Of a DNA stretch of 13,620 nt, positions 1 to 11,288 are shown piece after piece. The stretch lies in assembly GCA_947632265.1 (NCBI GenBank), contig CANROP010000030.1, forward strand, positions 1 through 13,620, read 5' to 3'. The position numbers and the translations under genes are program-made. This DNA is from an uncultured Bacilli bacterium (GTDB taxonomy: Bacteria > Bacillota_I > Bacilli_A > RF39 > UBA660). Position 1 is the stretch's first letter, and each line of letters begins with the position of its first letter. The notes beneath the pieces are model-generated. The model did not search any database and was not told the DNA's origin. It saw nothing but the letters and a program-made list of their open reading frames with translations.

Positions 1-174
1 TTAATACTTTGTCGAGATAAAGATAAATTTTCGGTTGAATATGCTTTAAAAGATATACATAAACCTATTGGAGTTAGCTCATATGAATTATCAGAATATT
101 TACCACCTGAAATTTTAAAAGAATTACCAACTGAAGAAGAATTAAATTTACATATTGATTTAGAAGATAAATAA
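1..174 (+). CDS. 3' end of a PDDEXK-nuclease family protein (DUF1016 / YhcG-like); partial, 5' end outside window
   Basis: Frame +1 is open from base 1 to TAA at 172-174 (57 codons): LILCRDKDKFSVEYALKDIHKPIGVSSYELSEYLPPEILKELPTEEELNLHIDLEDK. From memory this matches the conserved C-terminal tail of DUF1016/YhcG nucleases (ILC..K....EYAL.....PIGVSEY.L...LP..L...LP..EEL). It is not in the ORF track because it is truncated. Recognition is by recall, not by search. Confidence 0.6.
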   Translation, partial: LILCRDKDKFSVEYALKDIHKPIGVSSYELSEYLPPEILKELPTEEELNLHIDLEDK

Positions 175-198
175 TGTCATTTTACTCTAAAGAGATAA

Positions 199-357
199 CC
201 AGTGAAACTTTGGTTAGCAAAGTTAGGTAGTGAAAGAATTGCTAAAAGTAATCGTGATAATTTAGAAAAAGAACTAGGAAGGAGTGTACTATCTAGTAAT
301 AATGCATTAAATTATAAATATATAGAGGATTTAGAAAGAATAGAAAATAAATATTGA
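199..357 (+). pseudogene. Internally deleted remnant of a Bro-N/DinD-like gene (paralogue of 451..1305)
   Basis: Bases 199-241 are 42/43 identical to 763-805 of the intact gene (codons PVKLWLAKLGSERI). Bases 241-353 align codon-for-codon with 1192-1304 (last 37 codons, about 74% nt identity by hand count). The two blocks are fused in frame, removing the equivalent of codons ~119-247. There is an in-frame TAA at 196-198, no Bro-N N-terminal part and no credible start; the stop is TGA 355-357. Homology continues past the stop (353-373 vs 1308-1328, 19/21). Confidence 0.75.
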
Positions 358-450: not shown

Positions 451-1305
451 ATGAATCAAGATAAAATGCATTTAGTAAACAAAATATTTAATAATGAAAC
501 AATTAGAACCGTGTGGGATAAGGAGAAAGAAAAATACTTTATAAGTGTTGTTGATTTAGTAGGAGTTTTATCAGAAAGTAAAGATAAACAGGCGTACTGG
601 AGAAAATTGAAACAACGATTGAAAGAAGAAGGAAATGAAACCGTGACAAATTGTCACACTTTGAAACTTAAAGCACATGACGGAAAATATCGTATGACTG
701 ATGTTGTTGATATTGAAGGAATGTTTAGAATTATAGAATCAATACCAAGTAAAAATGCTGAACCAGTGAAACTTTGGTTAGCGAAGTTAGGTAGTGAAAG
801 AATTGATGAAACATTTGACCCATCACTAGCTGCACAAAGAGCGATAGACTTATATAGATTAAAAGGTTATGATGAGAAATGGATTTTAAAGAGAATTAAA
901 GGTATCCAAGATAGAAAGCAACTTACTGATGTATGGAAGGATGGGGGAATAACTGAAAATAAAGAATATGCTATTTTAACTAATGAAATTTATAAAGAAT
1001 GGTCTGGAATGAAAGCAAGCGAATATAAAGCATTTAAAGGACTTCATAAAGAAGCTTTAAGAGATAATATGACAGATATAGAAGTAGCGCTCGCAGATTT
1101 AGGAGAAATTGCTACTCGAGAACTTGCTAAAAAACATAAACCTTACGGTTTAGAACAAAATAAAAAAATCGCAAGAATGGGTGGTAATACGGCTAAAGTT
1201 GCAAAAGATGACCTTGAAAGAAAATTAGGTGAATCAGTAATAACAAGTAATAATGCATTAAATTATAAATATGTCGATGATTTAGAAAAAATAGAAAATA
1301 AATAA
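451..1305 (+). CDS. Bro-N domain protein with DinD-like (DNA-damage-inducible protein D-like) C-terminal region
   Basis: 284-aa ORF with a consensus RBS AAGGAGG 6 nt upstream. The N-terminal FNNETIRTVWDKEKEKYFISVVDLVGVL...AEPVKLWLAKLGSERI pattern is characteristic of Bro-N (phage antirepressor-type) domains. The helical C-terminal half resembles the E. coli DinD architecture from memory. Confidence 0.85.
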   Translation: MNQDKMHLVNKIFNNETIRTVWDKEKEKYFISVVDLVGVLSESKDKQAYWRKLKQRLKEEGNETVTNCHTLKLKAHDGKYRMTDVVDIEGMFRIIESIPSKNAEPVKLWLAKLGSERIDETFDPSLAAQRAIDLYRLKGYDEKWILKRIKGIQDRKQLTDVWKDGGITENKEYAILTNEIYKEWSGMKASEYKAFKGLHKEALRDNMTDIEVALADLGEIATRELAKKHKPYGLEQNKKIARMGGNTAKVAKDDLERKLGESVITSNNALNYKYVDDLEKIENK

Positions 1306-1387
1306 TTATTGAAATTTTAACAAAATATATGTAGATAAAGATAAGCCTATCATAAAACATAAAATTATTTGAAACCATGAAAAAATA

Positions 1388-1416
1388 TTCACAAAGTTAG
1401 ACTTTTATGGTATTAT
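1388..1416 (+). promoter_or_regulatory. Sigma-A-type promoter candidate for the AAA+/VWA operon
   Basis: -35 TTCACA (1388-1393, 5/6), 17-nt spacer, extended -10 TGgTATTAT (1408-1416). The RBS AAGGGGG (1431-1437) lies 6 nt before ATG 1444. Confidence 0.55.
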
Positions 1417-1443
1417 AGTACTAACTTTTTAAGGGGGCTTTTT

Positions 1444-3288
1444 ATGAGGGTAAAAAAAGTTGGAATATTTAATGAAAATCAATTGATAGGTAAGACTGCA
1501 CTAAAGACATTAAATGATTATGGACTAAAATGTTTTTCATCTGATTTATCAAGAATAATGGGTAATCAATATGATAATCAAGGATATGGTTCTTACTATA
1601 TAAACGGAACTAATGTAACTAATCCAAAAAAAGAAGGAATTAGGTATATTGGAACTGATGGGAAAGCATTAACCACATATTCAAGAGGAAATCAAATGGG
1701 CATAGGTATAAGGATTTGCATATCTTTTGACGATATTGAAAATTTTGATTTGGATAATATATACGATTTAAACATTGAATATCCTTTAAATGCTATTAGT
1801 GGAATGGTAGGAAGAACTATCGATAAATTATTTAATAAAAAGAACAGATTAATTATTAAAACTGGAAGAAGTCATGAAATAGATGGGAAACTATATGATG
1901 AATATGAGGCTTTCGGAATTAGGTTTATAAAAATGCAAAATAAAACAGACTCTAAAATTTTAAGTGATGGTACCTCTACAGAAAAAAATAAAGATGTTTA
2001 TTTGCAAGTCGATAAAATTCCATTTATAGTTGATGAAGATGCAAGATTAATATATTCAACATTAATTTTATTTTCAACTAATTTGGTTTTTAAAGGAAAA
2101 GATTATATTGCAGATATTGTTGAAAATCTAAATGGAAATTTTTTAAAGAGTATTAATGACGAATTAGAACATAAAAAGCCATGTATACTTTTTGATGAGA
2201 GAGAAGAAACAACAAAGAATAGATATGGCTTTGATTTTTCAGATTTAACTGAAGAAGAAATCATAGAAATATGTATAAATAGTAATATCGCTGTATTTTT
2301 ACATGGAAAGACAGGAACTGGTAAAACTGAAAGAATGCTTACACTAGATAGAGATTTAGAATTAATTGATTTTGGTTGTACAAGTTCTGACGGATTTACA
2401 GGAATTATTGCAAAAGACTTTAATTCAAAAGAGTTGTTTTTATATGAACCATATTGGTATAAGAATTTATGTAAGAAATGTAAAGATGCACCAAACAAAT
2501 TACATATTTTGTTTTTAGAAGAGTTAACTAATGCAAAAAATGATATACAAAAAGTTGCTTTCGAAGTTGCTTTAAATAAAACATTAACTAATAGTGGCTT
2601 TAGGCTAAAATTACCTGAAAATGCAGTTGTATGTGCAGCAGGGAACGAAGCTTCTGAATCAAGATCAGCAAATGCTATGAGTGAGCCATTATTCGGAAGA
2701 TTTGCTCATGTTTATATTGATACCGATTCAGAAGAATGGTTAAAGTGGGCATTAAAAAGAAAAAAAACAGGAAAAGAATTGTTATATAAAAAACAAGAGG
2801 AAATTAATTCTATACATCCTGCAATAGTTGATTTTATTAGAGTAAATGGAGATAAAGTATTAAGAACTAAGTATAATGGTATAACCCCTAATGCTGATCC
2901 AAGAAAGTGGGCAATAGCCTCTAAAGCATTATATAAAAGCAATAATCCAAATGTTCTTCGTGCTTTTGTTGGTGAAGAGTTAACAAAGAGTTTTATTGAA
3001 TTTTGTAAGATGAACTTAATTACTATAGATGATGTATTAAATGATAGATGTAAAGTAGAAAGCATCCCTTTTGATCCGTCATTAAGATGGTATACTACAA
3101 TATGTTTAAGTATGGTTGATGATGAAAATGTTGATAAAGTTAGACAATTTGTACGAGGATTGGGAAAAGAATTTTTAGCTGTGTTTGATTACGAGTGGTC
3201 AAAAGATAACGATGAAAGAATTATGAAATTATATAGTCAATCTGATAGAGCATTTGTAAAAGGGTTGAAACCAAATGGAAATAGATAA
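1444..3288 (+). CDS. AAA+ NTPase of the AAA_5 (MoxR/McrB-like) class with a large unassigned N-terminal domain
   Basis: 614-aa ORF with a strong RBS. It has Walker A GKTGTGKT (aa 288-295, nt 2305-2328), Walker B ILFLEE (aa 355-360, nt 2506-2523), sensor-1-like VVCAAGN (N401) and an Arg in LFGRF (R419). I recognise no motif in aa 1-~285. The C-terminal ~190 aa are presumably a lid plus extra helices. Confidence 0.85.
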   Translation: MRVKKVGIFNENQLIGKTALKTLNDYGLKCFSSDLSRIMGNQYDNQGYGSYYINGTNVTNPKKEGIRYIGTDGKALTTYSRGNQMGIGIRICISFDDIENFDLDNIYDLNIEYPLNAISGMVGRTIDKLFNKKNRLIIKTGRSHEIDGKLYDEYEAFGIRFIKMQNKTDSKILSDGTSTEKNKDVYLQVDKIPFIVDEDARLIYSTLILFSTNLVFKGKDYIADIVENLNGNFLKSINDELEHKKPCILFDEREETTKNRYGFDFSDLTEEEIIEICINSNIAVFLHGKTGTGKTERMLTLDRDLELIDFGCTSSDGFTGIIAKDFNSKELFLYEPYWYKNLCKKCKDAPNKLHILFLEELTNAKNDIQKVAFEVALNKTLTNSGFRLKLPENAVVCAAGNEASESRSANAMSEPLFGRFAHVYIDTDSEEWLKWALKRKKTGKELLYKKQEEINSIHPAIVDFIRVNGDKVLRTKYNGITPNADPRKWAIASKALYKSNNPNVLRAFVGEELTKSFIEFCKMNLITIDDVLNDRCKVESIPFDPSLRWYTTICLSMVDDENVDKVRQFVRGLGKEFLAVFDYEWSKDNDERIMKLYSQSDRAFVKGLKPNGNR

Positions 3289-4507
3289 TATAGTAAAGAA
3301 TCTTTTAATAAAATATCCATTGTTTGGAAATATAATTGCTAATTTAAAATTTATATTAACCAATTCTTTTGTTCCTGCACCTGCATTTACAGATGGAGTT
3401 AATGTTTATTATAAACAAGAATTTTTTGATGATTTTACAACTCATGAGCAAGAATTTGTAATTGCTCATGAATTATTCCATATCGTATTAAGTCATTTAA
3501 ATAGAAACATCGGTAGAGATCGAGATTTATTAAATTATGTAGAGGATGCAATAATTAATCAATTACTAGTAAGAGATGGATTAACAATGCCACAAGGACT
3601 TGTAGATGTTCCTGATGCTCTTGATTATTCAACCGATGAATTATATATGAGATTTTTACCAAACCTTAATGAAATAAAAAAATGGATGCAAGCAAACACA
3701 TATCATTTAGAAATTCAAGATTTAAATGATATACTAAATAAAATTTATGATTCAGATATTCAAGATTTAATGGATGAAAATTCTAAATTAAGAAATGAAA
3801 TGATAAACGATTATCAAGAAGAATTAAAGGAAAAAGCCCAATATGGTAAAGTAGCACTCGGATTGGAGTTTCCCAGTGTAGAAGTGGGCAAAGCATATCC
3901 ACTACTTTTTTGGAAGGATTTGTTAAAAGCAAGTTTAATTAATCCTAGTGAAACAATTACATCATTTTATGAAGTTGAAATGGATGGAGTAATAAGAAAA
4001 GAATTAAAGCAAGATCTTGGTTTTTCTGAAAGTGAAATAATAATTGATAGTAGCAGTTCAATGGATATGAAAAAAATAAAAGTAATTTTAAGAGAATGTA
4101 AAAACATTTTATATTGTAGCGATATAAGAGTAGGATTTTGTGATACAAAATTTTATGGTTGGAATGATATTAGAAATGATATTGATATAGATAAATTACA
4201 TATTATAGGTCGTGGTGGAACTGATTTTGAAGCAATGGCAAAAAGTTTTTCTAGTAATGTTGACAATAAAATAGTAATTACTGACGGCTGGTGTGATTTT
4301 CCGTTAGATAGACCAGATGTTTTGTGGATAGTTATAGACAATCAATTACCATATCATTTAGATCCAGATTCATCATATAGTAATGGTTGGTTAAAAAAAG
4401 TCGATCTTAGTAAGATTAACTTTATCTTTATAAATGAGAATGATATCCAAGCACCTGAATATAATAAAGACAAGTGCTTAGTATTTGAAAGGAAAATTCA
4501 AAATTAA
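3275..4507 (+). CDS. Putative zinc metallopeptidase fused to a VWA-like domain (DUF2201_N + DUF2201 architecture)
   Basis: 410-aa ORF whose ATG (3275) overlaps the upstream gene by 14 nt. It has HELFH (aa 65-69, nt 3467-3481) followed by H74. The VWA MIDAS signature is D258-S-S-S-S262 (nt 4046-4060), GGTDF and ITDGW. Order and spacing match my recollection of Pfam PF13203/PF09967 proteins. Confidence 0.85.
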   Translation: MEIDNIVKNLLIKYPLFGNIIANLKFILTNSFVPAPAFTDGVNVYYKQEFFDDFTTHEQEFVIAHELFHIVLSHLNRNIGRDRDLLNYVEDAIINQLLVRDGLTMPQGLVDVPDALDYSTDELYMRFLPNLNEIKKWMQANTYHLEIQDLNDILNKIYDSDIQDLMDENSKLRNEMINDYQEELKEKAQYGKVALGLEFPSVEVGKAYPLLFWKDLLKASLINPSETITSFYEVEMDGVIRKELKQDLGFSESEIIIDSSSSMDMKKIKVILRECKNILYCSDIRVGFCDTKFYGWNDIRNDIDIDKLHIIGRGGTDFEAMAKSFSSNVDNKIVITDGWCDFPLDRPDVLWIVIDNQLPYHLDPDSSYSNGWLKKVDLSKINFIFINENDIQAPEYNKDKCLVFERKIQN

Positions 4508-4648
4508 TGAATTTTTATAGAATACTATCTTTAAGACAAGATAGTAACATACTAATGTATCAGCACTCCAATACAACAATCATAACTTTATTAAAAACGG
4601 GATTTTATAATAATAATTAACAATAAATATAAAAACATCATAAAACAA

Positions 4649-4676
4649 TTGAAAAATGAAAAAATTATGTTATAAT
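4649..4676 (+). promoter_or_regulatory. Sigma-A-type promoter candidate
   Basis: -35 TTGAAA (4649-4654), 16-nt spacer ending TGt, -10 TATAAT (4671-4676). The RBS GGTGAT starts only 7 nt after the -10, implying a very short leader. Confidence 0.45.
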
Positions 4677-6951: not shown

Positions 6952-7401
6952 ATGTGCAATAACAATAATAATAACAACGAAGAAAGTTGCCGTTGCATAG
7001 CAGAAATCCTTACAGTTATAAATGTATTACAACAAAATGCAAATTGTTGCGGTGATACTTGCTTAGAAACTTGTGATAGAGGATTTCTTGGATGTGGAAC
7101 TACAACTTTAGGATGTAACACAAGACCAGTAGTATTATATACATGTTGTGGTAACGGTACTCCTTGGAGTATGCCAACAACAAGAGAAAACGTAGTATGT
7201 GGAGAACCAGGAGCAGTATGCTCAAACGTATTTAGAGTTGAAAAAATAGATGGTTGCTGTGCAACATTTAGAGTTTTAGCAGAAAATCCTGATACTACAT
7301 CTTTATATCCTTATGTAGCAACTAATTCATTTTTCACAATGAATCTTAATTGCTGCTGTGTATTAAGATGCTTACCAGATACTTATGTAGAATGTATATA
7401 G
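6952..7401 (+). CDS. Cysteine-rich spore coat/exosporium protein of the CotY/CotZ/ExsY family
   Basis: 149 aa with 20 Cys. VFRVEKIDGCCATFRVL and NLNCCCVLRCL resemble B. subtilis CotZ segments FFRVERVHGSCATLSLL and DLDCFCAINCL (recalled). RBS AGGGTGGA; a good intrinsic terminator lies downstream. There is an N-terminal run of 7 Asn. Confidence 0.8.
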   Translation: MCNNNNNNNEESCRCIAEILTVINVLQQNANCCGDTCLETCDRGFLGCGTTTLGCNTRPVVLYTCCGNGTPWSMPTTRENVVCGEPGAVCSNVFRVEKIDGCCATFRVLAENPDTTSLYPYVATNSFFTMNLNCCCVLRCLPDTYVECI

Positions 7402-8405: not shown

Positions 8406-9368
8406 ATGCAGGAAAATTTAAGCAATTCAAATGCTTTTAGTGTATTAAAAATATATGGAGAAGATTTAACTAGTAAAAAATATATAACAAATCCAGCAAT
8501 CGCACGTGATGAAGAATTAAAAAAACTTATGATGGTTTTATTAACTCCAGAGAAGTCTGCTTTATTAATAGGAAAAGCTGGTGTAGGAAAAACTTCTATC
8601 GTAGAAGGCCTTGCATATAGAATACTTAATAATACAGTACCTCAAGCACTTGAAGGATATAGAGTTATAAAAATAAACTCATCATCCTTAACAGGAAAAA
8701 TATTACTTAACGGCAGAGAAGAATTAGTAGTAACACTACTTATGGAAGAATTACAAAACTTAGAAAAAATCATAATTTTTATAGATGAAATACATACATT
8801 AATAGGTAGTCATGAAAATTCAATGGATCTAGCAAACATCCTGAAGCCAGCAATCGATAGAGGTGCGGTAAAATTAATAGGTGCGACAACGGATATAGAA
8901 TATAATACTTATATTATAAGAGATAGAGCATTCTTAAGAAGATTTGAAAAAATAAATGTAGAAGAACCAAGCGAGGAAACAACTGTAGAAATACTTTTAA
9001 AAAGTCTACCCAAAATAGAAGCTTCAACGGGTGCGAAATTTAAATACAACGAATACATAACAAAAATGTTATTAGAATCTATAGTAAGTGCAACTAGTGA
9101 ATATAAAAGAGTGTATGGACTTGGGGCAATGTACCCAGATATCGCTTTTTCAGTTTTAACAGCTGCATTTTCAGAAGCAATATTTCAAAATAGAAACGAA
9201 GTAAATGTATTAGATGTTTATAACGCAATAAAAAATAGCAAAAGAATATACCCTGATTCTATTGTAAGAGAGTTAAATGCATTTAAAGAAAAATTTAAGG
9301 ATATATGCATGGAAGAGGGCATAGTATTAAAAGATGTTGATATATCAGAACTTGGTAGTATTGAATAA
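8406..9368 (+). CDS. Stand-alone Clp/Hsp100 D1-type AAA+ module (no N-domain, no D2)
   Basis: The 320 aa align by eye to the ClpC/ClpB D1 region. Matches include GEDLT...NPAIARDEELKKLMMVL, Walker A GKAGVGKTS followed by IVEGLAYRI, Walker B IIFIDEIHTLIG, ANILKPAIDRGAVKLIGATT and RDRAFLRRFEKINVEEPS. RBS GAAGGAGAG. Confidence 0.85.
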   Translation: MQENLSNSNAFSVLKIYGEDLTSKKYITNPAIARDEELKKLMMVLLTPEKSALLIGKAGVGKTSIVEGLAYRILNNTVPQALEGYRVIKINSSSLTGKILLNGREELVVTLLMEELQNLEKIIIFIDEIHTLIGSHENSMDLANILKPAIDRGAVKLIGATTDIEYNTYIIRDRAFLRRFEKINVEEPSEETTVEILLKSLPKIEASTGAKFKYNEYITKMLLESIVSATSEYKRVYGLGAMYPDIAFSVLTAAFSEAIFQNRNEVNVLDVYNAIKNSKRIYPDSIVRELNAFKEKFKDICMEEGIVLKDVDISELGSIE

Positions 9369-10390: not shown

Positions 10391-10419
10391 TTGAATTTAT
10401 TTTATAAAAATGATATTAT
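10391..10419 (+). promoter_or_regulatory. Sigma-A-type promoter candidate for the acidic membrane protein gene
   Basis: -35 TTGAAT (10391-10396), 17-nt spacer ending TGa, -10 TATTAT (10414-10419). The track's ATG at 10410 lies inside this promoter, which supports the downstream start at 10443. Confidence 0.5.
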
Positions 10420-10442
10420 ATATTAAGAATAGGGAGGGAGTT

Positions 10443-11288
10443 ATGACCGAATTTTTAAACTTTATAAACTCAAATTATCTATGGCTTTTAGGGGGAGCAA
10501 TTATAACTCTTCTTGCCATTATAGGATATTATGCTGATAAGACTAATTTTGGACAAGGTAAAAGAATAGAAACTATAGATGAAACTAAGGATGAAAAACC
10601 AGTATATGAAAATAAGACTTTAGTAGATTTAATTCAAAATAATTCTGAAGTTAAAGGTGATTTTGAAGAAAATGAATCACTTGATAATACTATAGAATCA
10701 AATAGTGATGTTAAGTTAGATGATATTGTAGGTAAAGAAGTAGAAGATACTAAAGAAAATAAAGAAGTACCAAATACTTTAGAATCTTTAGATAACAAAG
10801 AGTATAAGCTATCAAGTGAGCAACAGGGAAATTTAAACTTAAAAGAATCTAGTGAAGAAAATATGTATGAATCTTTAGAAGATAAAGTATATGAACCATC
10901 ACCTAATGTGATAAAAGGCTCTGATAATGTAGAAATACCTAAATATAATGAAGAATTATCTAAAAATGATGATGCAATAGAAAATGCAGAATCTTTATTC
11001 GAACAAGAGCCAGAAAAAGAAGATACAAACATATCTAATAAACTAGAAGATAATACAGAAAGTGAAAGCAAAATAGATAAAGAATTTGATGAGCTAGATG
11101 AAGCATTTAGTGAAGTAGTACCAGAAGAAAAAATAATTAATGATGAATTGTTAGATGATATTGATGATATGTCTTTAGATGAAGATTTAGATTATAAAAT
11201 AACTAACATACCAGATTTAGATGATGTAGAGTTACCAAAAATATCATCATTTAGAAAAAATAATGATGAAGATATTTGGAAATTTTAA
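10443..11288 (+). CDS. Membrane-anchored, highly acidic low-complexity protein (hypothetical)
   Basis: I prefer ATG 10443 (RBS AGGGAGGGAG just upstream) over 10410. An N-terminal TM helix (YLWLLGGAIITLLAIIGYYA) is followed by ~250 aa dominated by E/D/N/K/S with no recognisable domain. A bidirectional hairpin lies downstream. Confidence 0.7.
   Translation: MTEFLNFINSNYLWLLGGAIITLLAIIGYYADKTNFGQGKRIETIDETKDEKPVYENKTLVDLIQNNSEVKGDFEENESLDNTIESNSDVKLDDIVGKEVEDTKENKEVPNTLESLDNKEYKLSSEQQGNLNLKESSEENMYESLEDKVYEPSPNVIKGSDNVEIPKYNEELSKNDDAIENAESLFEQEPEKEDTNISNKLEDNTESESKIDKEFDELDEAFSEVVPEEKIINDELLDDIDDMSLDEDLDYKITNIPDLDDVELPKISSFRKNNDEDIWKF

What the first reader, a model, noticed from the sequence alone, without database searches (positions are those of the whole stretch)
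1388..4507. Self-contained AAA+ (AAA_5) NTPase plus metallopeptidase-VWA operon: candidate uncharacterised sensor-motor-protease system
Seen in sequence: the operon has its own promoter-like element (TTCACA-17-TGgTATTAT) and a strong RBS. The two ORFs overlap by 14 nt (ATG 3275 lies inside the last codons of ORF1), which indicates translational coupling and probably a stoichiometric complex. ORF1 has intact Walker A (K294), Walker B (ILFLEE), sensor-1 (N401) and an Arg (R419). ORF2 has intact HELFH plus H74 and a full MIDAS (D258xSxS, GGTDF, TDG). Established knowledge: AAA_5/MoxR ATPases are characteristically encoded next to VWA partners (RavA-ViaA, NorQ-NorD, CbbQ-CbbO, CobS-CobT). The peptidase+VWA fusion corresponds to Pfam DUF2201_N/DUF2201, which is still a domain of unknown function. 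Comparative genomics (Aravind group) has proposed vWA-MoxR modules as NTP-dependent conflict systems. Inference: a variable N-terminal domain on an AAA_5 motor mirrors McrB logic (sensor domain plus motor), but here the partner is a protease-VWA rather than the McrC nuclease. The operon also sits beside a PDDEXK nuclease gene and duplicated Bro-N genes in accessory-looking DNA. I therefore propose a two-component defence or stress system in which the ATPase licenses a MIDAS-tethered protease.
Basis: partly seen in the sequence, partly recalled or inferred. Interest (0 to 1): 0.85.

Follow-up and report, generated by a model that had tools for sequence, protein, structure and literature searches.

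The report
Sensor-fused AAA+ ATPase with vWA-protease partner
This is a real, intact, self-contained two-gene cassette: a MoxR/AAA_5-type ATPase with a fast-evolving lectin-like N-terminal domain, plus a zinc-protease-vWA partner, from a widespread but untested family shared by bacteria and lytic phages, and it is a plausible but unproven candidate for a new kind of microbial conflict (defence) system.

Summary
ORF1 (1444-3288, 614 aa) and ORF2 (3275-4507, 410 aa) overlap by 14 nt. They match AAA_5 and DUF2201_N + DUF2201.

The unit is a mobile cassette. Homology to other genomes is confined to 1361-4554, including a conserved promoter and ribosome-binding site, and the flanks differ in every genome.

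The ATPase-DUF2201 pair is adjacent in 77 of 80 genomic loci from many phyla. It also occurs in lytic N4-like, rV5-like and jumbo phages. No functional study was found, and PADLOC has no model for it.

What varies is the partner of the core:
- nothing (phages and basal forms);
- an SNF2 helicase, with or without an HD protein;
- a separate LRR protein;
- an LRR_5 fusion;
- or, as here, a DUF6273-related N-terminal domain, reported to be C-type-lectin-like, that evolves about twice as fast as the motor.

There is no conserved third gene and no metabolic context. About half of the annotated neighbourhoods carry mobile-element or defence-candidate genes.

Best reading (about 0.5): a sensor-motor-protease conflict system. 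The defence role is untested. The protease-vWA/MoxR pair was already noted in jumbo phages in 2021. I rate it a new variant of a known kind.

The parts
1361..4554 (+). Mobile cassette: the block of nucleotide homology shared with loci in unrelated genomic contexts
   Evidence: blastn: 87% identity to L007-L009 over window 1361-4446 and 79% to L001/L002 over 1361-4554. No locus matches the window downstream of 4554. Upstream of 1361 only the Bro gene matches, and elsewhere in L015, L020 and L033.
1388..1416 (+). Promoter-like element: TTCACA, 17 nt, TG-extended TATTAT
   Evidence: 10 of 12 matches, TG present. Conserved across most of 11 loci with unrelated upstream DNA. The consensus match alone is not significant.
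1431..1437 (+). Ribosome-binding site AAGGGGG, 6 nt before the ATG
   Evidence: Sequence. Conserved as a GGGGG/GGAGG-type site in most rows of alignment A4.
1444..3288 (+). ORF1: 614-aa sensor-fused AAA_5/MoxR-like ATPase
   Evidence: phrog_1297, E 2e-41, aa 272-592; AF2 pLDDT 86.
1444..2229 (+). ORF1 N-terminal beta-rich domain (aa 1-262), DUF6273-related putative ligand-binding (sensor) domain
   Evidence: No Pfam hit on its own. The A1_N HMM matches the N-terminus of the L031 ATPase, which carries a sub-threshold DUF6273 hit. The A5 profile finds 177 proteins, mostly stand-alone, and 4 of the 120 listed are flagged PF19789. Mean pairwise identity is 43% against 82% for the AAA core.
2254..2727 (+). 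ORF1 AAA+ core (aa 271-428): Walker A K294, Walker B E359/E360, sensor-1 N401, Arg R419
2728..3285 (+). ORF1 C-terminal all-helical domain (aa 429-614), shared with the phage ATPases
   Evidence: helices 429-599. phrog_1297 coverage extends to aa 592. Invariant block G479, P482, N483, D485-W489.
3275..4507 (+). ORF2: 410-aa zincin peptidase-vWA protein (DUF2201_N + DUF2201); its start overlaps ORF1 by 14 nt
   Evidence: (phrog_1314, E 2e-40).
3275..3658 (+). ORF2 metallopeptidase domain (aa 1-128): H65-E66-x-x-H69, H74
   Evidence: Pfam DUF2201_N. PDB profile hits to the minigluzincin MJ1213 (E 1e-3) and M48 BepA. The residues are invariant.
3659..3949 (+). ORF2 long helical, partly disordered linker (aa 129-225)
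   Evidence: AF2 helices 120-141, 150-159 and 162-192; pLDDT below 50 for aa 189-209. Identity only 38%.
3950..4354 (+). ORF2 vWA domain (aa 226-360) with a complete MIDAS motif (D258-x-S260-x-S262, T316, D337)
   Evidence: Pfam DUF2201. Foldseek hits to the BatB, CLCA1 and integrin I vWA domains, E about 3e-4. The residues are invariant or nearly so.
451..1305 (+). Context: Bro-N family gene, a full-length match to PADLOC defence candidate PDC-S13
   Evidence: (E 8.9e-111).
197..357 (+). Context: internally deleted remnant of a second Bro gene
   Evidence: Repeat families D1, D2 and D4. ORF 202-357.
1..174 (+). Context: 3' end of a YhcG-type PDDEXK nuclease gene
   Evidence: Pfam YhcG_C, E 1.3e-9.

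Best explanation
The window carries a horizontally mobile, self-transcribed two-gene cassette that encodes a sensor-motor-protease machine.

ORF1 is predicted to form a MoxR/AAA_5-type ring ATPase. Its extra N-terminal domain is related to DUF6273, a domain reported to be C-type-lectin-like, and is the specificity element that binds a particular macromolecule.

ORF2 is made in a coupled manner. Its vWA/MIDAS domain docks it to the ATPase or to the captured target, as in NorQ-NorD, RavA-ViaA and midasin. It also carries an active minigluzincin/M48-like zinc peptidase on a long helical linker.

ATP hydrolysis after ligand capture is proposed to remodel the complex so that the peptidase cleaves the captured protein or is itself licensed.

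The core (ATPase + protease-vWA) is old and is shared with lytic phages. The bacterial versions differ in the recognition or effector parts bolted onto it: an SNF2 helicase with or without an HD protein, LRR proteins, LRR fusions, and this lectin-like fusion. I therefore think the most likely biological role of this version is inter-genomic conflict, meaning defence of the cell or of a mobile element against phages or other invaders.

Shown: gene structure, domains, intact motifs, strict pairing, cassette mobility, modular partners, and faster evolution of the N-domain.

Inferred: complex formation, ligand sensing, proteolysis, and any role in defence.
For: - Intact, invariant ATPase, zincin and MIDAS residues.
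- Pfam, PHROG and PDB-profile assignments.
- The ATPase and DUF2201 genes are adjacent in 77 of 80 loci from Bacillota, Bacteroidota, cyanobacteria, Alphaproteobacteria, CPR and an archaeon. Two of the three exceptions are cut by contig ends.
- A 4-14 nt gene overlap recurs in most loci of the close clade.
- Homology is confined to 1361-4554, with a conserved promoter and ribosome-binding site, and every genome has different flanks.
- 128 nearest neighbours in 20 loci fall into 119 Pfam families, with no recurrent third gene and no metabolic partner.
- Mobile or defence-type neighbours in several loci:
  - Mob_Pre relaxase plus serine recombinase (L001);
  - integrase plus AAA_25, followed by an SNF2/ResIII helicase, N6_Mtase, T5orf172 and nSTAND (L007-L009);
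  - RhuM/Fic (L005);
  - Bro-N/PDC-S13 and YhcG in the window itself.
- Modular recognition parts across the family: LRR_5-ATPase fusions (L030, L035), a DUF6273-like fusion (L031), separate LRR proteins of about 1200 aa (L052, L080), and a homologous SNF2 helicase directly upstream in 25 loci, with an HD_3 protein in 7 of them.
- The N-domain evolves about twice as fast as the motor.
- Tandem paralogous systems plus a stand-alone N-domain gene in L006.
- DUF6273 is a C-type-lectin-like, DGR-diversified receptor-binding domain (PMC10743442; bioRxiv 10.1101/2024.10.15.618418). CLec sensors coupled to MoxR-vWA have been proposed in other conflict systems (PMC10907252).
- A MoxR-vWA threat-sensing pathway now has experimental support (PMC13622651).
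Against: - There is no experimental datum for any member of the family.
- PADLOC 2.0 has no model for either protein.
- Four of nine annotated contexts are purely housekeeping (L003, L092, L093, L094). No statistical enrichment near defence genes was computed.
- The same core pair is conserved in lytic phages, in a replication or middle-gene region in N4-like phage Kc283. There it cannot be anti-phage immunity, and it has been proposed to aid virion assembly (PMC7824862).
- The link between the N-domain and DUF6273 rests on weak hits (sub-threshold or 'faint' Pfam matches, and 4 of the 120 listed homologues flagged). I could not check the fold separately, because Foldseek of the whole model was dominated by the AAA+ part.
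- Physical interaction between the two proteins was not modelled.
- One close relative (L011) has a nonsense codon in ORF1, so the system is dispensable.
Confidence: 0.5

Rival explanations
1. It is a dedicated chaperone and maturation protease. Like classical MoxR-vWA pairs (NorQD, CbbQO, RavA-ViaA, CoxDE, the ATV tail system), the pair assembles or processes one specific cellular or element-encoded protein complex. The N-domain merely recruits that client. No conflict role is involved.
For: - All experimentally studied MoxR-vWA pairs are assembly or insertion chaperones (summarised in PMC7159879; NorQD papers listed).
- For the jumbo-phage protease-vWA/MoxR pair, a role in virion assembly with proteolytic processing has been proposed (PMC7824862).
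- About half of the contexts are housekeeping.
- A large family of stand-alone N-domain paralogues exists in the same bacterial lineages and could be clients or partners.
Against: - No client gene is conserved next to the cassette: 119 Pfam families among 128 neighbours.
- The cassette sits at a different chromosomal site in every genome and sometimes on mobilisable elements.
- The recognition parts are swapped across the family (LRR, helicase, lectin-like), which is atypical for a fixed client.
- No phage structural genes are nearby, either in the window or among the most frequent families of the basal loci.
Confidence: 0.2
2. It is a phage- or MGE-derived module that serves the element rather than the host. 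It might act in host takeover or counter-defence, or as an ATP-driven protease that clears proteins from DNA together with a helicase, loosely analogous to SprT/Wss1 with Cdc48. In that case this copy is cargo or a remnant of an element.
For: - Best family matches are the phage families phrog_1297 and phrog_1314.
- Hundreds of lytic phage genomes carry the pair (279 records for the ATPase, 100 for the protease-vWA).
- In N4-like phage Kc283 the pair lies between the RNA polymerase genes and a DNA helicase whose gene overlaps the vWA gene.
- 25 bacterial loci have an SNF2-type helicase fused into the same operon, and 7 of them also have an HD phosphohydrolase protein.
- Some cassettes lie on integrase- or relaxase-bearing elements.
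- Bro-N genes, typical of phages and MGEs, are adjacent here.
Against: - The window shows no integrase, replication or structural genes around the cassette.
- Several cassettes are solitary between housekeeping genes.
- The version here lacks any helicase partner and instead has a ligand-binding-type N-domain.
- The outer neighbours of the basal bacterial loci are not prophage-like.
- The DNA-protein-crosslink analogy comes from memory of the SprT/Wss1 literature and was not tested.
Confidence: 0.2
3. It is a non-functional relic: an accessory cassette drifting towards loss.
For: One close relative (L011, 82% identity) has an in-frame stop in the ORF1 homologue.
Against: - Both ORFs are intact here.
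- All catalytic residues are invariant in about 50 homologues spanning 33-89% identity to the window proteins.
- The promoter and ribosome-binding site are conserved.
- The AAA core is 82% identical across the clade.
Confidence: 0.03

Closest known systems
MoxR AAA+ / (metallopeptidase-vWA) pair of lytic phages: N4-like gp24/gp25-type genes, rV5-like 'MoxR ATPase', group 2.2 jumbo phages (Iyer et al. 2021, PMC7824862); PHROG families 1297 and 1314
   Same: - Same two protein families: phrog_1297 at E 2e-41 and phrog_1314 at E 2e-40.
- 22-26% identity over the AAA+ and C-terminal helical part of the ATPase, and 25-44% over parts of the protease-vWA.
- Same zincin-then-vWA domain order.
- Same pairing of the two genes.
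   Different: - The phage ATPases are about 350-370 aa and lack the 262-aa N-terminal domain.
- In phage Kc283 the two genes are separated by an exonuclease gene and sit in the replication or middle-gene region.
- Here the genes overlap and form a stand-alone chromosomal cassette with no phage genes around it.
- In phages a role in virion assembly has been proposed.
vWA-MoxR ternary conflict systems (VMAP, iSTAND, FtsH, beta-propeller types; Kaur et al. 2020, PMC7159879) and their CLec/DGR-diversified sensors (PMC10907252)
   Same: - An AAA+ MoxR-class motor plus a vWA partner.
- Association with a peptidase.
- Variable sensor-type domains, including C-type-lectin-like and repeat domains.
- The proposed logic: sensing, then ATP-dependent remodelling, then effector release.
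   Different: - Those systems have a defining third component, which is absent here.
- Their effector domains sit C-terminal to the vWA domain or on VMAP. Here a zincin is N-terminal to the vWA domain.
- Their sensor is not fused to the ATPase.
- They derive from CoxD/CoxE and are enriched in multicellular bacteria. This family is shared with phages and is found here in gut Bacilli/Erysipelotrichales MAGs.
Classical MoxR-vWA chaperone pairs (NorQ-NorD, CbbQ-CbbO, RavA-ViaA, CobS-CobT) and midasin/Rea1
   Same: - AAA_5-class ATPase. The A7 family profile hits the midasin AAA ring (E 1e-40, summed over repeats), MoxR 2r44, CbbQ 5c3c and NorQ 9qhd.
- The partner has a complete MIDAS motif.
   Different: - No client or metabolic gene neighbourhood.
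- The partner carries an active-looking protease.
- The ATPase carries a ligand-binding-type N-domain.
- NCBIfam gives no equivalog or family hit.
McrBC type IV restriction
   Same: - Architecture logic: a variable N-terminal recognition domain fused to an AAA_5-class motor, with a translationally coupled effector partner.
- McrB appears among the PDB profile hits (6hz4, E 1.7e-8).
   Different: - The partner is a protease-vWA protein, not the McrC PD-(D/E)xK nuclease.
- The N-domain is not a DNA-binding module by any test made here.
- McrB-specific GTPase motifs were not examined.
Minigluzincins (selecase MJ1213) and M48/BepA peptidases
   Same: HExxH-containing helix and surrounding topology. 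The A2 profile hits 4qhj at E 1e-3 and BepA at E 0.03-0.05.
   Different: The similarity covers only about 50 residues. Those enzymes are stand-alone or periplasmic and are not linked to a vWA domain or an AAA+ partner.

Membership tests
AAA_5 / MoxR-class AAA+ ATPases | Walker A, Walker B, sensor-1 Asn and Arg (finger/sensor) present and conserved | tested here: met
   K294, E359/E360, N401 and R419 are present. G288, G293, K294, E360, N401 and R419 are invariant in 49 sequences.
AAA_5 / MoxR-class AAA+ ATPases | Significant match to the family model or to solved members | tested here: met
   Pfam AAA_5 at 24.0 bits against a cut-off of 22, which is borderline. The A7 profile hits midasin (1e-40), MoxR 2r44 (3.6e-9), CbbQ (1.6e-8), McrB (1.7e-8) and NorQ (5e-7). 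BFVD Foldseek hits to phage 'MoxR-like' and 'dynein-related' ATPases reach E 1e-17.
AAA_5 / MoxR-class AAA+ ATPases | Helix-2 insert and pre-sensor-1 hairpin typical of the clade; hexameric ring | tested here: inconclusive
   The best PDB Foldseek hits of the AF2 model are MCM subunits, which I recall belong to the same insert-bearing AAA+ clade, at E 1e-10 but TM only 0.2-0.27. The inserts were not inspected residue by residue. The oligomeric state cannot be tested here.
AAA_5 / MoxR-class AAA+ ATPases | Encoded next to a vWA/MIDAS partner | tested here: met
   Overlapping ORF2 carries the vWA domain. The two genes are adjacent in 77 of 80 loci.
Pfam DUF2201_N + DUF2201 (peptidase-vWA) proteins | Both Pfam models matched above their gathering scores, in that order | tested here: met
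   DUF2201_N at 64.6 bits (cut-off 23.2) and DUF2201 at 28.3 bits (cut-off 26.4). Nearly all listed homologues carry both precomputed domains.
Zincin metallopeptidases | HExxH plus a third metal ligand, conserved | tested here: met
   H65, E66, H69 and H74 are invariant. Catalysis itself cannot be tested here.
vWA/MIDAS domains | DxSxS ... T ... D motif on a Rossmann-like fold | tested here: met
   D258, S260, S262 and D337 are invariant and T316 is conserved in at least 90%. Foldseek hits to vWA domains: BatB 3ibs at E 3e-4, CLCA1 and integrin I domains.
vWA-MoxR ternary conflict systems (Kaur et al. 2020) | A conserved third component (VMAP, iSTAND, FtsH or a beta-propeller-fused vWA protein) | tested here: not met
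   No recurrent neighbour family in 20 loci (128 proteins, 119 Pfam families). None is present in the window. The definition is taken from PMC7159879.
vWA-MoxR ternary conflict systems (Kaur et al. 2020) | Variable effector domains C-terminal to the vWA domain | tested here: not met
   ORF2 has the peptidase N-terminal to the vWA domain and only a 50-aa tail after it.
Known or candidate anti-phage defence systems (PADLOC-DB 2.0) | Match of either protein to a PADLOC model | tested here: not met
   No hit at E<=0.01 for ORF1 or ORF2. No hit at E<=0.001 for the L080 or phage Kc283 homologues or the L039 DUF2201. The L039 ATPase has only a weak partial DolB match (E 8.8e-5). Only the neighbouring Bro-N gene matches (PDC-S13).
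Metabolic MoxR-vWA pairs (CobST, NorQD, CbbQO, RavA-ViaA) | Fixed neighbourhood with the client enzyme genes; family-specific HMM | tested here: not met
   No NCBIfam hit. Neighbourhoods are heterogeneous and lack chelatase, NOR, Rubisco or Cad genes.
McrBC | McrC-type PD-(D/E)xK nuclease partner | tested here: not met
   The partner is DUF2201_N/DUF2201.
DUF6273 (C-type-lectin-like) domain, for the ORF1 N-terminus | Match to PF19789 above threshold, or a C-lec fold | tested here: inconclusive
   The window N-domain alone gives no Pfam hit. Related N-domains have weak hits: L031 at E 8.7e-4 (below the cut-off) and P0265 at E 7.8e-6. Four of the 120 listed homologues from the A5 search carry a precomputed PF19789. 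The fold of the isolated domain could not be searched.

The most novel reading that the evidence does not exclude
The ATPase + protease-vWA core defines an unrecognised, widespread class of prokaryotic immune systems. Interchangeable receptor modules (the lectin-like domain here; LRR fusions, LRR proteins, or SNF2 helicase with HD elsewhere) detect invader molecules. A MoxR-type motor then switches on, or feeds substrate to, a MIDAS-tethered zinc protease. The sensor-less copies in lytic phages would be the evolutionary source of the module or a counter-measure. This would be a protease-based, NLR-like sensing logic built on a MoxR motor and compressed into two genes.
Probability: 0.3. Interest if true: 0.8.

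Novelty: new variant of a known kind. Interest (0 to 1): 0.6.

Why it matters
DUF2201 proteins and their AAA_5 partners are common in bacteria, archaea and many lytic phages. They are conserved across N4-like phages. I found no functional study of the family.

This window gives a compact, clonable version of 3.2 kb with its own promoter and two genes. Its added putative ligand-binding domain suggests what the machine recognises.

If the cassette proves to be a defence or conflict system, it would:
- add a protease-effector, MoxR-driven class to the known immune repertoire;
- link it mechanistically to the larger vWA-MoxR systems that are only now being tested;
- raise the question of what the phage copies do.

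If it proves to be a client-specific chaperone-protease, it would still assign a function to two long-standing domains of unknown function.

Tried and rejected
- **PDB sequence searches.** Searches with single sequences and with the full-length ORF1 profile gave nothing useful. Only a profile restricted to the ATPase part and broadened with basal and phage members worked.
- **Foldseek of the whole ORF1 model.** MCM subunits dominated the result with poor TM-scores, so it did not reveal the fold of the N-domain.
- **Promoter and terminator scan.** The number of promoter-like sites was not above chance, and no intrinsic terminator was found. I relied on cross-locus conservation instead.
- **Empty-site search.** I looked up an exact downstream protein to find a sister genome without the cassette. 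It returned only a 1.2-kb contig.
- **Plasmid collection.** No nucleotide match to the cassette.
- **The 984-aa helicase downstream in L007.** I tested whether it is the same family as the helicase of the basal three-gene operons. blastp gave no hit at E 1e-3, so that adjacency is treated as context only.
- **Prophage origin of the basal bacterial loci.** Rejected, because the most frequent neighbour families include no phage structural genes.
- **Membership in the Kaur et al. ternary systems, McrBC, and the metabolic MoxR pairs.** All rejected on defining features (see the membership tests).
- **Literature.** Searches for DUF2201, PF13203, COG3864 and N4-like vWFA returned only incidental mentions.

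Full report
**1. What is in the sequence**

The window is 26% G+C throughout. Two same-strand ORFs occupy the finding. ORF1 is 1444-3288 (614 aa) and ORF2 is 3275-4507 (410 aa). The ORF2 ATG lies 14 nt inside ORF1.

- ORF1: K294 in GKTGTGKT, ILFLEE 355-360, N401 and R419.
- ORF2: HELFH 65-69, H74, DSSSS 258-262, GGTD 314 and TDG 336.

In alignments of 49 ORF1 and 51 ORF2 homologues, spanning 89-33% identity to the window proteins, the key residues are invariant.

Database matches:
- Pfam gives AAA_5 for ORF1, just above threshold at 24 bits against 22.
- Pfam gives DUF2201_N (E 1e-17) plus DUF2201 (E 2e-6) for ORF2.
- A profile of the ATPase family hits the midasin AAA ring, MoxR 2r44, CbbQ, McrB and NorQ among solved structures.
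- The ORF2 profile touches the minigluzincin MJ1213 and M48 BepA around the HExxH helix.
- The AF2 model of ORF2 matches vWA domains.

AF2 models:
- ORF1 (pLDDT 86): a beta-rich N-domain (aa 1 to about 240), a short low-confidence linker, an AAA+ core (271-428) and an all-helical C-domain.
- ORF2 (pLDDT 77): peptidase, a long helical and partly disordered linker, then the vWA domain.

**2. It is a discrete, mobile cassette with its own promoter**

blastn of the window against 90 fetched loci shows homology only between 1361 and about 4554. Identity is 87% to L007-L009 and 79% to L001/L002. The window's downstream flank matches no locus. Upstream, only the Bro gene finds homologues, and at other positions in L015, L020 and L033.

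However, the -35/extended -10 pair and the AAGGGGG ribosome-binding site are conserved in most of 11 loci whose DNA further upstream is unrelated. No intrinsic terminator was found. The next gene has its own strong promoter-like site at 4649-4676.

**3. Genomic context**

Annotated contexts of full-length homologues all differ:
- L001: next to a Mob_Pre relaxase and a serine recombinase.
- L003: between a short-chain dehydrogenase and a glycosyltransferase, beside the ribosomal protein operon.
- L005: near RhuM/Fic.
- L006: behind a second, paralogous system with two extra N-domain ATPases and a stand-alone N-domain protein.
- L007-L009: on an integrase/AAA_25 element, followed by an SNF2/ResIII helicase, N6_Mtase, T5orf172 and an nSTAND protein.
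- L092-L094: alone between housekeeping genes.

I pooled the four nearest genes on each side in 20 non-redundant loci. This gave 128 proteins and 119 different Pfam families. The commonest were HTH_3 and HTH_31 (4 each), then RhuM, Fic, Mob_Pre, Bro-N and GyrB (2 each). PADLOC hits among them were HTH regulators and the candidates PDC-S05, PDC-S23 and PDC-S13.

In the window, the cassette follows a YhcG PDDEXK nuclease gene end, a Bro remnant, and an intact Bro-N gene that is a full-length match to PDC-S13. Downstream lie ordinary chromosomal genes: DUF2179, a VCA0040-like gene, CotZ, TrmL, an S41 protease and NtdP.

Association with mobile or defence-type genes is real but moderate, at about 4 of 9 annotated contexts.

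**4. The family is much wider than this clade and has a modular build**

A scan of one genome per species with the ORF2 profile returned 80 loci. HMMs made from ORF1 show an ATPase gene adjacent to the DUF2201 gene in 77 of them. Two of the three exceptions are cut by contig ends. The taxa include Bacilli, Clostridia, Bacteroidota, Prochlorococcus single-cell genomes, Alphaproteobacteria, a CPR bacterium and an archaeon.

The basal ATPase is about 370 aa with no N-domain. The 262-aa N-domain is confined to a clade of gut Bacilli/Erysipelotrichales MAGs and is detected more weakly in some 690-880 aa versions.

Other versions of the system:
- ATPases with BspA-type LRR_5 repeats at the N-terminus (L030, L035), and one with a weak DUF6273 hit (L031).
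- 25 Bacillota loci with a homologous SNF2/ResIII helicase of about 1100 aa directly upstream. Seven of them also have an HD_3 protein of about 990 aa.
- Bacteroidota loci with the gene order reversed, an LRR protein of about 1200 aa upstream and a further protein of about 840 aa downstream.

The outer neighbours of these basal loci are again heterogeneous and not prophage-like. PADLOC has no model for any of these ATPases or DUF2201 proteins.

**5. Phages**

ORF1 (aa 272-592) and ORF2 match phrog_1297 and phrog_1314 at E about 1e-40. The label 'HNH endonuclease' on phrog_1314 does not fit the zincin-vWA domains found here.

tblastn finds the ATPase in 279 phage records and the protease-vWA in 100. 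These are mostly lytic N4-like (Schitoviridae), rV5-like and large phages. BFVD structure matches agree.

In Kosakonia phage Kc283 the two genes lie between the RNA polymerase genes and a DNA helicase/rIIA region.

Iyer et al. 2021 (PMC7824862) explicitly noted a MoxR ATPase paired with a vWA protein that has an N-terminal metallopeptidase in jumbo phages. They proposed a role in virion assembly and processing.

The core pair was therefore already recognised by comparative genomics. It is not in itself an anti-phage device.

**6. The N-terminal domain**

Alone, it has no Pfam hit. An exhaustive phmmer search of 1.8 billion representatives found 29 proteins. A profile built from those (A5) found 177 proteins. 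Most are stand-alone proteins of 250-400 aa from gut Bacilli MAGs. A few are fused to ankyrin, pentapeptide or DUF4116 repeats. Four of the 120 listed are flagged PF19789, which is DUF6273.

DUF6273 is described as a C-type-lectin-like domain that DGRs diversify in the receptor-binding proteins of gut phages (PMC10743442; bioRxiv 10.1101/2024.10.15.618418).

Within the clade, the N-domain shows 43% mean pairwise identity. The AAA core shows 82% and the C-domain 66%.

These data fit a specificity or sensor domain. The DUF6273 link is weak, and I could not confirm the fold on its own.

**7. Mechanism and alternatives**

By analogy with NorQD, RavA-ViaA and midasin, I infer an ATPase ring to which the vWA/MIDAS domain of ORF2 docks, with coupled synthesis of the two proteins. 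The analogy rests on established knowledge of those systems and on the papers listed. The N-domain selects a macromolecule. ATP-driven remodelling then either presents it to the zincin or releases the zincin from an inactive state.

The following features favour a conflict role, at about 0.5:
- cassette mobility;
- swapping of sensor modules between versions of the system;
- tandem paralogues;
- partial association with mobile-element and defence-candidate genes.

The rivals are a client-specific chaperone-protease (0.2), an element- or phage-serving module possibly acting on DNA-bound proteins together with a helicase (0.2), and a relic (0.03).

**8. Comparison and novelty**

The system is not a member of the Kaur et al. 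ternary vWA-MoxR systems, because it has no third component and a different domain order. It is not McrBC, because it has no McrC. It is not one of the metabolic MoxR pairs, because it has no client neighbourhood and no NCBIfam hit.

It is a member of the uncharacterised AAA_5 + DUF2201 family shared with phages. Within that family it represents a previously undescribed subtype, in which a lectin-like domain is fused to the ATPase.

Rating: new variant of a known kind. Interest: 0.6.

Noticed in passing
window 197-357 and 451-1305: The short ORF at 202-357 is an internally deleted copy of the Bro-N gene at 451-1305. The repeats are 94% and 90% identical and cover the middle and the 3' end of the gene plus about 30 nt downstream. 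So there is one intact Bro gene and one remnant, not two genes.
   Followed up: partly
window 451-1305; L015 366-1239; L020 5316-5956: The Bro-N protein is a full-length match to PADLOC defence candidate PDC-S13 (E 8.9e-111) and to phrog_15286. Homologous Bro genes lie within 2-6 kb of the ATPase/DUF2201 pair in two other loci. This may be a recurrent association.
   Followed up: partly
window 1-174: This is the 3' end of a YhcG-type PDDEXK nuclease gene (Pfam YhcG_C, E 1.3e-9). The rest of the gene lies outside the window.
   Followed up: yes
L006 1591-9988: Directly upstream of the pair there are two further N-domain ATPases (628 and 622 aa), a 133-aa ORF, a 528-aa DUF2201 protein and a stand-alone 266-aa N-domain protein. 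This is a tandem array of paralogous systems.
   Followed up: partly
L039, L041-L045, L048-L049, L051, L053-L054, L057-L060, L062, L066-L067, L069-L070, L072-L073, L075, L078-L079, L082 (helicase immediately upstream of the ATPase, e.g. L039 5608-8829): 25 Bacillota loci carry a homologous SNF2/ResIII/Helicase_C protein of about 1100 aa that abuts the 370-aa ATPase and the DUF2201 gene. Seven of them also have an HD_3 protein of about 990 aa. This looks like an unclassified 3-4 gene system. The helicase gives only weak PADLOC hits to DrmD and BrxH.
   Followed up: partly
L052 6356-14952; L080 6277-14884: In Bacteroidota the gene order is LRR protein (about 1200 aa), then DUF2201, then ATPase, then an unannotated protein of about 840 aa.
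   Followed up: no
P0268-P0386: The ORF1 N-domain belongs to a large family of mostly stand-alone 250-400 aa proteins in gut Bacilli MAGs. They share motifs such as YGEYPQ and VEPIKWxVDE. Some are fused to ankyrin, pentapeptide or DUF4116 repeats. Their role and their relation to the cassette are unknown.
   Followed up: partly
L011 8158-10014: In a MAG whose cassette is 82% identical, the ORF1 homologue has a single in-frame stop inside the N-domain. It could be a pseudogene or an assembly error.
   Followed up: partly
window 1444-3288 (model mc5c7d338b86e): The best PDB Foldseek matches of the full ORF1 model are MCM2-7 and archaeal MCM subunits over 450-560 columns (E about 1e-10), but with TM of only 0.2-0.27. 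It is unclear whether this reflects only the shared AAA+ clade or also the N-terminal beta domain.
   Followed up: no
window 8406-9368: A 320-aa stand-alone AAA protein matches only the first ATPase domain of ClpA/ClpB/ClpV (E 3e-49 to a ClpA model, far below the model's cut-off). It lacks a second ATPase domain.
   Followed up: no
window 6952-7401 and 10410-11288: There is a cysteine-rich CotZ-like spore-coat ORF that starts with a run of seven Asn, and a 292-aa highly acidic low-complexity protein with one N-terminal hydrophobic segment.
   Followed up: no
L010 (Kosakonia phage Kc283) 5187-10769: In this N4-like phage the ATPase is preceded by a gene annotated 'ATP-dependent protease' and separated from the vWA gene by an exonuclease gene. 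The vWA gene overlaps a DNA helicase gene. This suggests a link to replication or repair for the phage version.
   Followed up: no
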